64,000 nucleotides of DNA from a virus (IMGVR_UViG_3300027776_000001:23746-87745), one strand, 5' to 3'. Numbered from the stretch's first letter, positions 36,398 to 41,676 are shown. Program-made: numbers and translations. Notes: generated by a model not told the origin, from the sequence alone.

Positions 36398-36589
36398 TTA
36401 CACCTCCGTTTTGAATTCTTTTAATGTACCACAATGCTTACACTGTTGCACATATAGTGATCCAGTGGTGAGAAGTTCACATCTTACTCGACAATACCGA
36501 TGAATATCCCTATTAGTAAGAGTTTCCCATTGGTGCTGACAATCACGCCTGAAGTCCCCTACGATCAGCTTCCAAAGCCATGCAATCAT
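36398..36589 (-). CDS. hypothetical zinc-ribbon protein
   Basis: 63 aa; CQHQ...CRVRC...CKHC cysteine pairs. Confidence 0.3.
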   Translation of the reverse strand: MIAWLWKLIVGDFRRDCQHQWETLTNRDIHRYCRVRCELLTTGSLYVQQCKHCGTLKEFKTEV

Positions 36590-36591
36590 AA

Positions 36592-36813
36592 TTAATCTCC
36601 AAATTGGTTTTCGACTATTTGCGACATTTTCTGTAGAGCCGCAGCGAATTTGTTTGCTGGGTTGGCACGAGTGCCTAGCTCTCCTTCAATTTCCACAGGA
36701 TAAATACTATCCCTAGTCTGTACCAATACCAGATAAGCGTCTTCTACAGGATCATACAAAAGCTCTGCTCGTTCAGAGACGTATGGTCGGTGGATGTATG
36801 TAGCAACTATCAT
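36592..36813 (-). CDS. hypothetical protein
   Basis: 73 aa ORF. Confidence 0.3.
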   Translation of the reverse strand: MIVATYIHRPYVSERAELLYDPVEDAYLVLVQTRDSIYPVEIEGELGTRANPANKFAAALQKMSQIVENQFGD

Positions 36814-36859
36814 TTCGTTTCTCCAAAAGAAAAGGACATGAATCGATTATAAATTAGTC

Positions 36860-37435
36860 TCAATGCTTTGTCAACCTCACAGTGCCATGACGTTCTGTAT
36901 AGCCGTCTGGTAAGTTATCTTCCCTGAATTCTATCGCCAACCGCATGGCCTCCTCTTGGCCTAATTTACCTATATTAAATTTCTTCTGTATTTTCTTACC
37001 TGAATCTAGGTAAACTGTAGAAACGTAATACTTAGCGTGCCTGTTGTTGCAGTTTTTACCAGTATCTTGTAGATAAATGCCCACAGGTAATCCTGTATCT
37101 TTTGAACGAGCTTTATTTCTTGAGTTTATTTTATTAGTTTCTGCCCTTAAATTGTTTATGGAGTTATTTAAAGAATTACCATCAATGTGGTCTATGACTT
37201 TACTGCTGATTTCCTTGTTGAAAATTTCCGCAATTACTCTATGAACCATATAAAGTTTTCTTTTATATTGTACTTGCCAGTATTGTTTACCATGGTGGTC
37301 TGTGTGAATACAACCTGCCGGCGTATTCTTCTTAATTGACAAAATTGTTAATCCCTTGCCTGACCAAATATCAATAGCCCACCTCAGACAAGATGGACTT
37401 GTCTCATCATAATAAAAAATTTCATCCCACTTCAT
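36860..37435 (-). CDS. HNH homing endonuclease (HNH_3-type), paralog of 47927..48466 and 63741..64000
   Basis: FYYDETSPSCLRW N-terminal motif; VIDHIDGNSLNNSINNLR HNH motif; ATG 37435 with AGGAG RBS. Confidence 0.6.
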   Translation of the reverse strand: MKWDEIFYYDETSPSCLRWAIDIWSGKGLTILSIKKNTPAGCIHTDHHGKQYWQVQYKRKLYMVHRVIAEIFNKEISSKVIDHIDGNSLNNSINNLRAETNKINSRNKARSKDTGLPVGIYLQDTGKNCNNRHAKYYVSTVYLDSGKKIQKKFNIGKLGQEEAMRLAIEFREDNLPDGYTERHGTVRLTKH

Positions 37436-37476
37436 ATAATCTCCTTTAGGGGCTCCATTGGAGCCCCTATTTATTG

Positions 37477-37734
37477 TCAAGTGTTGTTTTGCTTGTTGTG
37501 GCGCTTCACTGCGTAGTCTAGACCCTTTGCAACCATAGAGATTACAAAGTATGCTCCAATAACAACAGGCCACAACGCCGTGGTTATAATAACCACCAGC
37601 ATAGCTCCACCGATTGCCTCTTCTTTTTCCTGACCCTTTTCATAGATATCTACAAGAGACTGATGAATCCAGTCCTTGCCATATATCAACCACACCACAG
37701 CCAGAATCAGTCCTATAGTGAGATAACCTAGCAT
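37477..37734 (-). CDS. hypothetical two-TM membrane protein (holin-like topology)
   Basis: 85 aa with two hydrophobic helices and charged C-terminus. Confidence 0.3.
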   Translation of the reverse strand: MLGYLTIGLILAVVWLIYGKDWIHQSLVDIYEKGQEKEEAIGGAMLVVIITTALWPVVIGAYFVISMVAKGLDYAVKRHNKQNNT

Positions 37735-38642
37735 GCTTCACTCCTAACAATGTTACGGATTTCCTCTACGGTTTGGTAACGGATAAGCGTACCATCTTCA
37801 TACACCAGTTCCAGCTCACCAGTAGCTTCCTCTTCACGAGTGGCCTGATCCTTCAGGAACAGAACACCATTTTCGTCACGACCTACGTGTAGCAGACCCT
37901 TAGCACTCTTCTTCACACCCTTGTCAGTGGCTGGGTCTTTGAAGAGTTCTCGGCCCGTACCATTCACAACAGCATGTGTAGCCTTCATTGCCATGCCGTA
38001 GGTGTCACGAGTGATATATTGGTAGGTATAAGACCCAATACCAAACACTACATTACCGCTAGCAAAGTTCATCTTAGCCAGTCGCGTAAGAATCTCTTCA
38101 GCACGCTCCAGAGTGATGCTATCACCATAGATCAGGCCAACCCGCTCACTCAGCATGCGATAACCAGTGGACGTTTCCGTACCACCAAAGGTGTTCCACA
38201 GGCAACGTACAGCGCCAAGGGCTTCGGACTCAGTTATTTCCTTGAAATCTAGGTCATAACCATCAAAATCACCGTAGTAGTAGCGAGCGTACTTATCCAC
38301 TTCGTAATACTTGCCTCCTACCTTGACAACTTCACAATCATCACTTATGTCCCTTTCCTTTATATCATCCACATCAGTGTACTCCACGAGTTCATGAATG
38401 TCGTATCCGCAGATAATACGGAAAGGATCGCCACTATCAGGACGGAACACAGTCTTTGCCAGACCTAGAGCATTCGGGGTACGGGCCAATATCTCCTCTT
38501 TACAAGCTGGTGCAATTTTAGTAATCACATCCCAGAAATTGTAAGTGTCCGATACATAACTGCAAACACCACTAGGATAAATGTTAGTAATGTAGTGCCG
38601 GAAAAACATTGTCTCGGCAATAAGCTTTAGATCATTCTTCAT
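37728..38642 (-). CDS. NAMPT-family phosphoribosyltransferase, C-terminal half (separately translated fragment of split gene; Namat/NadV-like)
   Basis: Homology to NAMPT C-terminal region (VVSDSYD-like CSYVSDTYNFWD, RPDSGDP); own GGAGG RBS + ATG at ~38642 overlapping stop of inserted HNH gene (ATGA). Confidence 0.6.
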   Translation of the reverse strand: MKNDLKLIAETMFFRHYITNIYPSGVCSYVSDTYNFWDVITKIAPACKEEILARTPNALGLAKTVFRPDSGDPFRIICGYDIHELVEYTDVDDIKERDISDDCEVVKVGGKYYEVDKYARYYYGDFDGYDLDFKEITESEALGAVRCLWNTFGGTETSTGYRMLSERVGLIYGDSITLERAEEILTRLAKMNFASGNVVFGIGSYTYQYITRDTYGMAMKATHAVVNGTGRELFKDPATDKGVKKSAKGLLHVGRDENGVLFLKDQATREEEATGELELVYEDGTLIRYQTVEEIRNIVRSEAC

Positions 38643-39177
38643 AAAACCTCCATGTAAGTTTAGTGCCATCTGGCAAAGTTCCTGCGGATTTGAAACCAGT
38701 TTTACCTCTGCAACATGCTGAAATATTGGATTTCTTAAGACCAAGAATTTCTGCTGCCTCTCCAATCGAGTTAAAAACTTGACCAGTAGTAGTACAGACA
38801 ACACTTTTTCCTTGACTTTCTCGAATACCTTGCTTTCTTTTTGCAAAATCTTTTATTAACCTATTGTCCCAAGCGTGTTGAGTTTGTTCTGACCGAGTTG
38901 CCCATTCAAGATTAGAGACATGATTATTCTTTTTGTCCCCATCCTTGTGGTTCACAGTCTCTTTCTTTTCAGGGTTAGGAATAAATGTTTCAGCAACTAG
39001 ACGATGAATCCTTTTTGTGTACCTGTGCCCGTCATCACCTTGTAGTCTAACTACTGAATACCCATCTTTGTTTCTTTGTGGTACAAGAAATCTGTCCACT
39101 GTCAGGGCATATACCTTCCCTTCACAAAATATAAGGTATTTAGAGAAGTTTGTCAACTTCTTCGGCTGTGTAGCCAT
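38632..39177 (-). CDS. HNH homing endonuclease inserted within NAMPT-like gene
   Basis: NHKDGDKKNNHVSNLEWATRSEQ HNH motif plus C-terminal IENR/NUMOD-like VFNSIGEAAEILGL; start taken at MATQPKK (~39177). Confidence 0.6.
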   Translation of the reverse strand: MATQPKKLTNFSKYLIFCEGKVYALTVDRFLVPQRNKDGYSVVRLQGDDGHRYTKRIHRLVAETFIPNPEKKETVNHKDGDKKNNHVSNLEWATRSEQTQHAWDNRLIKDFAKRKQGIRESQGKSVVCTTTGQVFNSIGEAAEILGLKKSNISACCRGKTGFKSAGTLPDGTKLTWRFYEE

Positions 39178-39979
39178 TCCATTCTCCTTTATCCTTAAGC
39201 TCTTGTTCAATAAGTAAAATATTACAAGATGCAGTACTGTGTTCGCTTGCAGGAACAGAGCCACCAAGGAACGTACTACCACCATTGTAGAACTGCTCAA
39301 GATAATCCATAGCAGGAATCGTATCAGTGCCAAGGAAGCTTAGCAAATGACCAGCGCTATAACCAGTATCAGACACACCACCAACACCACGGAAGCTGAA
39401 GTCATGACCTTGCCACTCAGTGAATTCCACAGGAGTGCCAGTCTTTTTTGCGTAGTGTACCAACAGACGCTTGTATTCAGCGGCAATAGTTGCAACAGTG
39501 GTGGCCTTCCACAGCTCTGCAGACAGCAGAGTTTCTAGGAAATTTGTCACCCAAAAGAACTCAGGCAGGGTATTAGTAATCGTCAGCATAGGCACCTTAG
39601 AAGGAACGAAGCTGCCTTCCTTGATAGCCTTAATACGGATTGGCAGATAGCCTAGCTTATGCAGAGCTTCGATATGATCAAAGCCTACAGCACCCGGCCC
39701 AAGAGAGCTATCCATACGACGCTGCCATTGCGCTTTCACCACTTCGAGAGGTTTACCAAAGAAATTACGCAGGAAATCATCCTGAATAATGTTCAGCAGG
39801 AAGCCCTGCAAGCCAAAGAATACCACACCATCCTTGGCAAAGCTGCTCTTCTTAGCCAAACGGCTGGAACGTGGTGTAAGGTTGGAGTAAATATACTCAG
39901 TGCCTTCAGGGTATTGATTGATGTGATTTATTTTGTAAAAATCAACCGCAGTAATCGGATTATAATTAAACATGTTCAT
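39140..39979 (-). CDS. NAMPT-family phosphoribosyltransferase, N-terminal half (Namat/NadV-like)
   Basis: [16 protein letters not shown] matches NAMPT N-terminus; [25 protein letters not shown] and SVPASEHST match conserved NAMPT core; last ~27 aa non-homologous read-through. Confidence 0.65.
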
Positions 39980-40493
39980 AGTCTCCTATTGGAAAATTAG
40001 TTCTGGCAAATTTGCCGTGCATCTGTATTGCGGCTTTATCGTAAGCTCTAGCAGCTTCCTCTTTAGTGTCGTATCTGCCAAGCTTGTAGATTATACCATC
40101 TTTTCGGATATAGGAAAGCCACCTTATTTCTCGCCCTTTCCTTGTGACACCTTTGAAGCCTGATTTACTCCAACCTTCTCTGTTTGCACAGTTATTACTT
40201 CTTGTTGCAGGTCGAAGATTTTCAATCCTGTTATCGTTCTCTACCCTGTTTTCATGGTCAATCTCATGGTCAGGATACTTACCATAATGAAGAAGCCATA
40301 CTAAACAGTGCTCACGGTAATATACACCATGAATTTTCAAGGTCACATAACCATGAACCGGGTGAACACTCCCCGCCCGTTTTCCTACACAATCCTTGGC
40401 TCTGCCTTTAACCCAAGTCTTGAAATACAAGTGCCCATCAGTCCGGTACTCATACCTTTCGTTGAGCACTTGAAGTAATTCTTCGTCACTCAC
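39966..40493 (-). CDS. HNH-AP2 homing endonuclease
   Basis: [20 protein letters not shown] motif and AP2-like [40 protein letters not shown]. Confidence 0.6.
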
Positions 40494-41368
40494 TACGCCT
40501 CCTTAGTTGGTATGTACAGCAAAGCCTTAACATCTTCTTTAAAGTTCTGCGATGTGCAGGCACAGAAGATATTATCGTAGTACGGCTTCAGAATGTCAAC
40601 ACCTTTCGTGAAGCGACCATGAGAAACGTACAAGTCTAGCTTGAATTCTTCACCACACCAACCTTGAAGAAATTTTGCTAGCAGAACAAATGTGCCTCCA
40701 CCGTCGCACAGGTCGTCTACCACAAGAATAGAAGTGCCCTTATCCATGTAGTACTTAATATCCGTGCCATTACACTTCCTAACACCTTGATAACTAAGCT
40801 CTCCAGTCTTCTCATCACGAGTCTTGAAGCCCATCAACACCTTGTCTTGCGACATACCAAGCGCTTCTGCCACCTTGAATACCTTCTTCAAGGCTCCAGC
40901 ATCAGGGGCAAGAATGTAGTCATAAGCCAAGCTATACTTGTAGCTCAGCATCTTAACTGTCTCAGCTTGACTGGCATAAGTGAGACGATCAATCATTTCA
41001 CTAACGTCAGAGTGAGGATCAATAGCCTTAACTTGATCGAAGTTGAGACTATTCAACATCTTAGCAAATACCTTCAGCGCATTAGCATCACCAACACTGG
41101 TCTTACGATCCTGCCGAGCAAAAGGAATGTACGGCATTGTTAATACTAGTGAAATGATTTTACGGTATGGCTCAAACAGGCTTGCAATCTGCGCCACCTG
41201 AAAGAACTCTTCACTGCTTTCCCAGTACCAGAGGATTTCTACAATACTATCCTCATAAGAGGAAAGCATATCAAGAAACTCATCATCCAAGCGAGCAGCA
41301 GGCTCTCCACAAGGGAATACCCACAGATTCTGGCTCACCACTTCATCATTAATTTTAACAGAAATCAT
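40493..41368 (-). CDS. ribose-phosphate pyrophosphokinase family protein (PRPP synthetase-like; candidate ADPR-PP synthetase Adps)
   Basis: [10 protein letters not shown] ribose-5-phosphate loop and [18 protein letters not shown]-binding motif. Confidence 0.65.
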
Positions 41369-41676
41369 TTCATCCTCCCAAATTCTTTCATCATGTCTTC
41401 ATAGTCTTGCTCTATTCGCAACTCCAGCCGCAGCATCTTCAGGATATCTTTGTCATCCTTCTGACTAAGGCTTTCTTGCTTACGCATAGCTTTAGCTGTT
41501 CGATAGGAATGAACACACTCCATACGATCATCTGAGCCTTCTTCATAAGTTGGAATTCTGAGCTTACAATCGATAACGAAGTTATTTAGATCAGTGATAT
41601 CCCTAGCCCTTCGTGCTATACGTCCTTGTACACGACGAACAAGACCATCAAAATATTCCAGTTTTGTTTGTTTCAT
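41365..41676 (-). CDS. hypothetical protein
   Basis: 103 aa ORF. Confidence 0.3.
   Translation of the reverse strand: MKQTKLEYFDGLVRRVQGRIARRARDITDLNNFVIDCKLRIPTYEEGSDDRMECVHSYRTAKAMRKQESLSQKDDKDILKMLRLELRIEQDYEDMMKEFGRMK

What the first reader, a model, noticed from the sequence alone, without database searches (positions are those of the whole stretch)
38632..39224. NAMPT-like gene split into two separately translated halves by an inserted HNH homing endonuclease gene
NAMPT homology stops near 39224 (SVPASEHST). It resumes near 38645 (FMKNDLKLIAE...CSYVSDTYNFWD). The gap contains an HNH-plus-IENR-like endonuclease ORF in a different frame. The C-terminal half has its own GGAGG Shine-Dalgarno 5 nt before an ATG. 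That ATG overlaps the endonuclease stop codon (ATGA), indicating translational coupling rather than splicing. This resembles the mobE-split nrdA of Aeromonas phage Aeh1: a gene physically fragmented by a free-standing homing endonuclease gene, with the halves presumably reassembling as protein. The non-NAMPT interval outside the endonuclease ORF is too short (a few tens of nt) for a group I intron core.
Basis: partly seen in the sequence, partly recalled or inferred. Interest (0 to 1): 0.75.

Follow-up and report, generated by a model that had tools for sequence, protein, structure and literature searches.

The report
Homing-endonuclease-split phage NAD-rebuilding enzyme gene
A phage gene for an NAD+-rebuilding enzyme (Namat, NAMPT family) is cut into two separately translated halves by a selfish endonuclease gene, and related phages show that this split-plus-endonuclease cassette is conserved, under selection and moves into intact copies.

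Summary
On the minus strand, a NAMPT-family gene is two ORFs: an N-half (39979..39140, 279 aa) and a C-half (38642..37728, 304 aa). A free-standing HNH_3/NUMOD endonuclease ORF (39177..38632, 181 aa) sits between them in a third frame. It overlaps the N-half by 38 nt and the C-half by 11 nt.

There is no room for an intron core, no Rfam intron hit and no intein motifs. The C-half has GGAGG-N4-ATG.

New findings:
- The same split at the same site occurs in many diverged uncultured phages. All three ORFs give dN/dS of about 0.1-0.3.
- One lineage keeps the split with only a 60-aa endonuclease remnant.
- Two lineages carry an unrelated MobE-like endonuclease on the opposite strand at the same site.
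- Two split/unsplit pairs, 93% and about 80-85% DNA-identical in the flanks, show that tail + endonuclease + head is one cassette replacing the short native linker.
- The enzyme carries the published Namat signature and follows a PRPS-like gene. It is probably the NARP1 anti-defence ligase, not a classical NAMPT.

Verdict: a new, well-supported "genes-in-pieces" case of the Aeh1 nrdA/mobE kind.

The parts
40493..41368 (-). PRPS-like gene (291 aa) at the head of the operon. It is a candidate Adps, the ADP-ribose pyrophosphorylase of NARP1.
   Evidence: PHROG phrog_619 'ribose-phosphate pyrophosphokinase', E = 9.9e-60. Pfam Pribosyltran and Pribosyltran_N hits are below threshold. Best PDB sequence matches are archaeal PRPP synthetases at only 1e-10. 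The same gene precedes the N-half in relatives.
39966..40493 (-). Additional free-standing HNH_3 + AP2 endonuclease gene (175 aa), wedged between the PRPS-like gene and the N-half. Its 3' end overlaps the N-half start by 14 nt.
   Evidence: Pfam HNH_3 43.3 bits and AP2 39 bits. PHROG phrog_99, E = 3.5e-47. It is absent from L010, L015 and L018, where the two enzyme genes abut.
39140..39979 (-). Namat/NAMPT N-half ORF (279 aa). It carries HDFSFRG, GTDT, the catalytic EHS (His247) and the clamp-loop Arg40.
   Evidence: phrog_16547, a half-length family of 315 positions, is matched over positions 7-277.
39143..39223 (-). N-tail, residues 253-279: [27 protein letters not shown]. Predicted as helix, loop, short helix. 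It has no counterpart in short-linker enzymes.
   Evidence: The PDB alignment stops at residue 252. The tail is conserved as protein in split relatives, including L011, where the endonuclease start does not overlap it. Synonymous third-position changes fall in the N-half frame. AF2 places helices at 247-263 and 272-279.
38632..39177 (-). Free-standing HNH_3 + NUMOD homing endonuclease gene (181 aa). SD GGAG at 39187-39184.
   Evidence: Pfam. PHROG phrog_59 and phrog_959. Homologues 50-70% identical sit at the same site in L010, L015, L018, L032, L184 and L102-L105. The conserved His and Asn positions of the matched HNH_3 region are invariant in the five-way alignment.
38647..38651 (-). GGAGG Shine-Dalgarno for the C-half. 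It lies inside the last codons of the endonuclease (W-R-F-Y), 4 nt before ATG 38642.
   Evidence: Sequence. TGGAGGTTTTATG is conserved in WIN, L010, L015 and L013, with variants in L018 and L032.
37728..38642 (-). Namat/NAMPT C-half ORF (304 aa). It carries SYVSD, RPDSGDP, YGDSI and the Namat clamp-helix motif GSYTYQYITRD.
   Evidence: phrog_15800, a half-length family of 322 positions, is matched over positions 8-320.
38616..38642 (-). C-head, residues 1-9 (MKNDLKLIA), preceding the native helix ETMFFRHYIT.
   Evidence: The PDB alignment resumes at residue 10 of the C-half. Heads of this kind start about 55 of the 120 best homologues.
39128..39156 (-). Sigma-70-like promoter match, TTGACA-17-TATATT (11 of 12), inside the 5' end of the endonuclease ORF. 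It could give a transcript for the C-half that lacks the endonuclease start. Speculative.
   Evidence: It is not conserved in relatives.

Best explanation
A free-standing HNH homing-endonuclease gene sits inside the coding sequence of a phage NAMPT-family enzyme. That enzyme is most likely Namat, the nicotinamide ADP-ribose transferase of the NARP1 NAD+-reconstitution (anti-defence) pathway. It is encoded just after a PRPS-like, Adps-type gene.

The insertion lies in a surface linker between the catalytic His motif (SVPASEHS) and the next barrel segment (YPSG..SYVSD). The N-half ends at a stop codon 38 nt inside the endonuclease ORF. The last codons of the endonuclease provide GGAGG-N4-ATG for the C-half.

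Inferred, not shown: the operon mRNA is translated into three proteins. The two enzyme halves reassemble non-covalently into an active enzyme. The catalytic site and the adenine clamp would then be built from both polypeptides (Arg40 and His247 from the N-half; the RPDSGD and GSYTYQY motifs from the C-half).

The N-tail (27 aa) and the C-head (about 9 aa) travel with the endonuclease as one cassette. In relatives, this cassette has replaced the short native linker of intact genes. This is the signature of homing with co-conversion, so the split state is mobile as well as tolerated.
For: Shown:
- ORF anatomy, frames, overlaps, SD and ATG.
- Domain assignments.
- A single-piece match of the concatenated halves to 1815 uninterrupted genes.
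- A breakpoint at the same alignment position in all split loci.
- No intron family hits and no unusual RNA structure.
- The same N-half / endonuclease / C-half architecture in L010, L011, L015/16, L018, L032 and L184, and in L103-L104, with L102 and L105 cut by contig ends.
- About 55 of the 120 best C-half homologues are C-half-only proteins that start at this point.
- NG86 dN/dS of 0.09-0.29 for N-half, C-half and endonuclease, with dS saturated.
- All family-invariant catalytic residues are kept in both halves.
- L013/L014 keep the split with only a 60-aa, internally deleted endonuclease remnant. That remnant still supplies the N-half stop and the C-half SD+ATG.
- An AF2 model of the concatenated halves gives pLDDT 86.4 and pTM 0.87, with the junction between two helices. 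Foldseek gives TM 0.92 to Namat 9w5x.

Mobility:
- L182 (split) and L183 (intact) are 92.8% DNA-identical in the flanks. An 838-nt block replaces exactly 30 nt, starting right after the E-H codons. The block is a 35-aa tail, a stop, a MobE-like endonuclease on the opposite strand, SD+ATG and a 12-aa head.
- L184 carries the same endonuclease family as the window. Compared with intact L186, it is 88% identical up to EHSV. The first 32-48 codons of the C-half are divergent, and the rest is about 93% identical outside a second variable insertion.

Namat assignment: the best solved match is SpbetaL1 Namat at 41% identity. The published signature GSX-phi-X-phi-X-phi-TRD, with aromatics at positions 3 and 7, reads GSYTYQYITRD here. 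The NadV structure 9ke8 (HdNadV) has GAQTYQRNTRD (PMC12774641).
Against: - No expression, protein or activity data exist for any split copy.
- dS is saturated, so dN/dS values are rough.
- The AF2 model was forced in cis.
- The mobility inference rests on two split/unsplit pairs and an unresolved NJ tree. For the window's own copy, no close uninterrupted relative was found; the best is 59-64% identical.
- An unsplit form containing both tail and head exists (P0033). The tails therefore derive from a long-linker gene rather than from the endonuclease, and their need for assembly is unproven.
- The Adps identity of the upstream gene was not established.
Confidence: 0.8

Rival explanations
1. The endonuclease ORF lies in a self-splicing group I (or group II) intron. 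The mature mRNA would encode one full-length enzyme.
For: Phage HNH and GIY-YIG endonucleases are often intron-encoded. The insertion is next to a highly conserved catalytic motif, as intron sites usually are. The best tblastn hits of the window endonuclease include one under a feature annotated 'intron-containing Mre11 double-strand break repair protein' in Staphylococcus phage Quidividi.
Against: - The three ORFs overlap by 38 and 11 nt, so no nucleotide lies outside an ORF.
- No intron family at E<=10 in 36500-41500, and none at E<=0.1 in six split loci.
- Junction folds are no better than shuffles.
- The N-tail, its stop and the C-half SD+ATG are conserved as coding features.
- In L182 and L017 the endonuclease is on the opposite strand.
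- In L013 only 140 nt separate the halves.
Confidence: 0.03
2. The locus is a pseudogene. The endonuclease insertion killed the enzyme and the halves are decaying relics, or only one half is made.
For: No functional data exist. NARP1 is an accessory function: Bas63 deleted for the two-gene operon still formed plaques, about 20-fold fewer on SIR2-HerA-expressing cells (bioRxiv 10.1101/2024.02.11.579819).
Against: - Both halves are intact ORFs of conserved length in at least 12 diverged loci.
- dN/dS is 0.1-0.3.
- Every invariant catalytic residue is retained.
- The tail, head, stop and SD/ATG are conserved.
- The split is maintained after endonuclease decay.
- No second copy is present in the 64-kb window.
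Confidence: 0.08
3. A 'fractured gene'. The tails would be split-intein halves that ligate the two polypeptides by protein trans-splicing, as in the arrangements described by Dassa et al. 2009 (PMC2677866).
For: That architecture also has a free-standing endonuclease gene between two gene halves in metagenomic data (abstract seen).
Against: - The extra sequence is only about 27 + 9 residues, too short for an intein. From my own knowledge, inteins need roughly 130 residues or more.
- There is no Cys/Ser at a plausible intein position 1.
- There is no His-Asn followed by Cys/Ser/Thr at the C-head.
- Pfam found no further domains, intein or otherwise.
- The tail and head align to the ordinary linker of uninterrupted long-linker enzymes.
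Confidence: 0.02
4. An ancient, purely vertical split. A single insertion happened once in an ancestor and everything since is vertical descent. The cassette would not be mobile, and the tails would simply be the ancestral linker.
For: The endonuclease has diverged about as much as the halves: 50-70% against 49-67% identity. Long-linker uninterrupted genes with similar tail and head exist.
Against: - Split and intact genes are interleaved in the tree.
- Very close pairs exist: P0104/P0117 at 95% and P0007/P0042 at 82%, with divergence confined to the junction.
- Two unrelated endonuclease families occupy the same site in opposite orientations.
Confidence: 0.07

Closest known systems
Aeromonas phage Aeh1 nrdA-a / mobE / nrdA-b ('genes in pieces'). 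Sources: Friedrich et al. 2007, as cited; Crona et al. 2011, PMC3045599.
   Same: A free-standing HNH-family endonuclease gene splits an enzyme gene into two ORFs without an intron or intein. Both ends carry unique tails. The downstream half has its own start. In relatives L017 and L182, the inserted endonuclease is itself MobE-like, at 35% identity to T4 MobE with E = 2e-20.
   Different: - The host gene is a NAMPT-family enzyme (Namat), not ribonucleotide reductase.
- The window's endonuclease belongs to the HNH_3/NUMOD (I-HmuI-like) family, not MobE.
- Here the tails resemble the linker of uninterrupted long-linker relatives rather than being wholly new sequence.
- Natural split/unsplit pairs show the cassette moving.
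- The function of the halves and tails is untested here, whereas it was shown biochemically for NrdA.
Namat of NARP1, in phages SpbetaL1 and Bas63. Sources: Osterman et al. preprint 10.1101/2024.02.11.579819; structures 9w5x/9w5w; PMC12774641.
   Same: 41% identity and TM 0.92 to the solved Namat. The clamp-helix signature GSYTYQYITRD and the clamp-loop Arg40 are present. The gene follows a PRPS-like gene in a two-gene operon.
   Different: - All described Namat proteins are single polypeptides of about 490 aa. Here the enzyme is encoded as 279 + 304 aa.
- It has a roughly 32-residue tail/head insertion at the split, and a second insertion of about 60 residues in the C-half.
- 'Split' and 'endonuclease' do not occur in the three NARP1 papers searched.
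Intron-encoded HNH endonucleases of the I-HmuI type (Bacillus phage SPO1 DNA polymerase intron). The comparison rests on my own knowledge plus the Pfam family name.
   Same: The same domain pair, HNH_3 plus an I-HmuI-like NUMOD DNA-binding module.
   Different: There is no intron RNA around the ORF. The ORF overlaps both host-gene halves.
'Fractured genes' with split inteins flanking a free-standing endonuclease (Dassa et al. 2009, PMC2677866).
   Same: Gene halves separated by a free-standing endonuclease gene in environmental sequence.
   Different: There are no intein halves. Reassembly would have to be non-covalent.

Membership tests
Endonuclease-fragmented gene ('genes in pieces', Aeh1 nrdA/mobE type) | Two adjacent ORFs that together align end to end with a single uninterrupted homologue | tested here: met
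   The concatenated halves cover 98-99% of uninterrupted genes in one piece. tblastn gives two HSPs in different frames meeting at reference residues of about 247-256.
Endonuclease-fragmented gene ('genes in pieces', Aeh1 nrdA/mobE type) | A free-standing endonuclease ORF between the halves, with its own start and stop, not fused in frame to either half | tested here: met
   ATG 39177 to TGA 38632, third frame, SD GGAG 6 nt upstream. The same protein is called as a gene elsewhere.
Endonuclease-fragmented gene ('genes in pieces', Aeh1 nrdA/mobE type) | No RNA- or protein-splicing element that could restore a single product | tested here: met
   No intron families. Junction folds have z = -1.07 and +1.02. 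The ORFs overlap. The tails are 27 and 9 aa, without intein motifs (Pfam).
Endonuclease-fragmented gene ('genes in pieces', Aeh1 nrdA/mobE type) | Independent translation signals for the downstream half | tested here: met
   GGAGG (38651-38647), 4 nt, ATG 38642. Conserved in relatives.
Endonuclease-fragmented gene ('genes in pieces', Aeh1 nrdA/mobE type) | Both polypeptides are made and assemble into an active enzyme, with tails contributing | not testable with these tools
   Indirect only: purifying selection, retained catalytic residues, persistence after endonuclease decay and tail conservation.
HNH homing endonuclease (HNH_3 + NUMOD, I-HmuI-like) | HNH_3 domain and NUMOD-type DNA-binding module above curated thresholds, with conserved His/Asn positions intact | tested here: met
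   HNH_3 42 bits against 24.8, and I-HmuI_NUMOD-like 29.5 against 27. H59, N77, H78, N86, N90 and H102 are invariant in five homologues.
HNH homing endonuclease (HNH_3 + NUMOD, I-HmuI-like) | Mobility: presence/absence polymorphism at a fixed site in otherwise similar genomes, with co-conversion of flanks | tested here: met
   Met for relatives, not for the window's own copy. L184 (with endonuclease) against L186 (without), and L182 against L183 for the MobE-like family. Close endonuclease relatives (>=53% identity) are found only at this site.
HNH homing endonuclease (HNH_3 + NUMOD, I-HmuI-like) | Site-specific cleavage of the endonuclease-free allele | not testable with these tools
   Needs an in vitro cleavage assay on the intact-gene sequence.
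Namat (NARP1 nicotinamide ADP-ribose transferase) | NAMPT-like fold and catalytic core (His247, Arg of RPDSG, Asp/Gly motifs) | tested here: met
   AF2 pLDDT 86.4. Foldseek TM 0.92 and E = 3.8e-57 to 9w5x. Invariant residues listed.
Namat (NARP1 nicotinamide ADP-ribose transferase) | [quoted passage not shown] | tested here: met
   The window has GSYTYQYITRD. SpbetaL1 Namat has GSFTYQYNTRD. HdNadV has GAQTYQRNTRD. Mouse NAMPT has GSGGALLQKLTRD.
Namat (NARP1 nicotinamide ADP-ribose transferase) | Clamp-loop stacking residue (Arg, Lys or Tyr at the third loop position; R40 in SpbetaL1) | tested here: met
   By alignment, window R40 (TPRSSR) pairs with chain R40 (TPRTSR). This is a sequence alignment only.
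Namat (NARP1 nicotinamide ADP-ribose transferase) | Partner Adps gene adjacent: PRPS-like, lacking the C-terminal alpha11-alpha12 module (PMC13586617) | tested here: inconclusive
   A PRPS-like gene lies upstream and is short at 291 aa. However, no Adps structure was matched and the C-terminal module was not examined.
Namat (NARP1 nicotinamide ADP-ribose transferase) | Makes NAD+ from ADPR-PP and nicotinamide, and counters NAD+-depleting defence | not testable with these tools
   Needs biochemistry and infection assays.
Group I intron carrying an endonuclease ORF | Conserved structured RNA core flanking or embedding the ORF | tested here: not met
   There is zero non-ORF sequence between the halves.
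Intein / split intein | Intein splicing blocks (N-terminal Cys/Ser, TxxH, C-terminal His-Asn + Cys/Ser/Thr) of sufficient length, in frame with the host protein | tested here: not met
   The endonuclease is out of frame with both halves. The tail and head are 27 and 9 aa and lack these motifs.

The most novel reading that the evidence does not exclude
The unit that moves is not just an endonuclease gene. It is a portable gene-splitting cassette made of a C-terminal tail with a stop, an endonuclease, an SD/ATG and an N-terminal head. It converts intact Namat genes into two-piece genes that still work. The helical tail and head would act as adaptors that hold the halves together.

This would be a third route, besides introns and inteins, by which a selfish endonuclease neutralises its own damage. 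It would be spreading here through a phage anti-defence enzyme, with at least two unrelated endonuclease families (I-HmuI-like and MobE-like) using the same site.
Probability: 0.45. Interest if true: 0.75.

Novelty: new member of a known kind. Interest (0 to 1): 0.62.

Why it matters
Only one endonuclease-fragmented enzyme, Aeh1 NrdA, has been dissected biochemically to my knowledge. Its authors proposed that tail-mediated assembly might be a general way to survive fragmentation (PMC3045599).

This locus offers a second, independent system with much richer natural variation:
- dozens of diverged split copies;
- intact close relatives that define the cassette borders to the nucleotide;
- a copy with a dead endonuclease;
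- a fused form;
- two unrelated endonucleases at one site.

That makes three questions directly testable. Are the tails needed? Where does the endonuclease cut? How often does the split state transfer?

There are also practical consequences. The split gene is probably Namat, so surveys of NARP1 that expect a protein of about 490 aa may miss or mis-score these two-piece versions. The natural break point also marks a permissive split site for engineering NAMPT-family enzymes.

Tried and rejected
- **Close DNA relatives.** Megablast of the locus against 50,697 phage records found none.
- **Exact locus elsewhere.** The C-half protein P0001 is in the protein collection, but no encoding contig is on record.
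- **Introns.** Rfam with permissive thresholds on the window region and on six related loci gave nothing relevant. Junction RNA folds are not unusual.
- **Split intein or intein.** Rejected on length, frame and motifs.
- **Ribosomal bypass or frameshift fusion.** Not pursued. The gap to skip is about 500 nt, and each ORF has its own SD and start.
- **Split copies in cultured phages.**
  - A spread sample of 60 of the 2044 NAMPT-bearing records showed only uninterrupted genes or probable frameshifts.
  - The top hits inspected (GAP31, phiPsa374, RP31, 4_4572, Slickus01) are intact.
  - PHROGs does hold half-length families, so some exist, but I could not locate them.
- **Literature.** Searches for a split NAMPT/NadV/Namat found nothing.
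- **NJ tree of the C-domain.** It is star-like and is not used beyond the close pairs.
- **Identity gradient towards the junction, window against relatives.** Suggestive for L010 (78-85% near the junction against about 60% overall), but not clear for the others.
- **Promoter inside the endonuclease ORF.** Not conserved in relatives.
- **7-nt in-phase direct repeat flanking the cassette.** At chance level by my own estimate.
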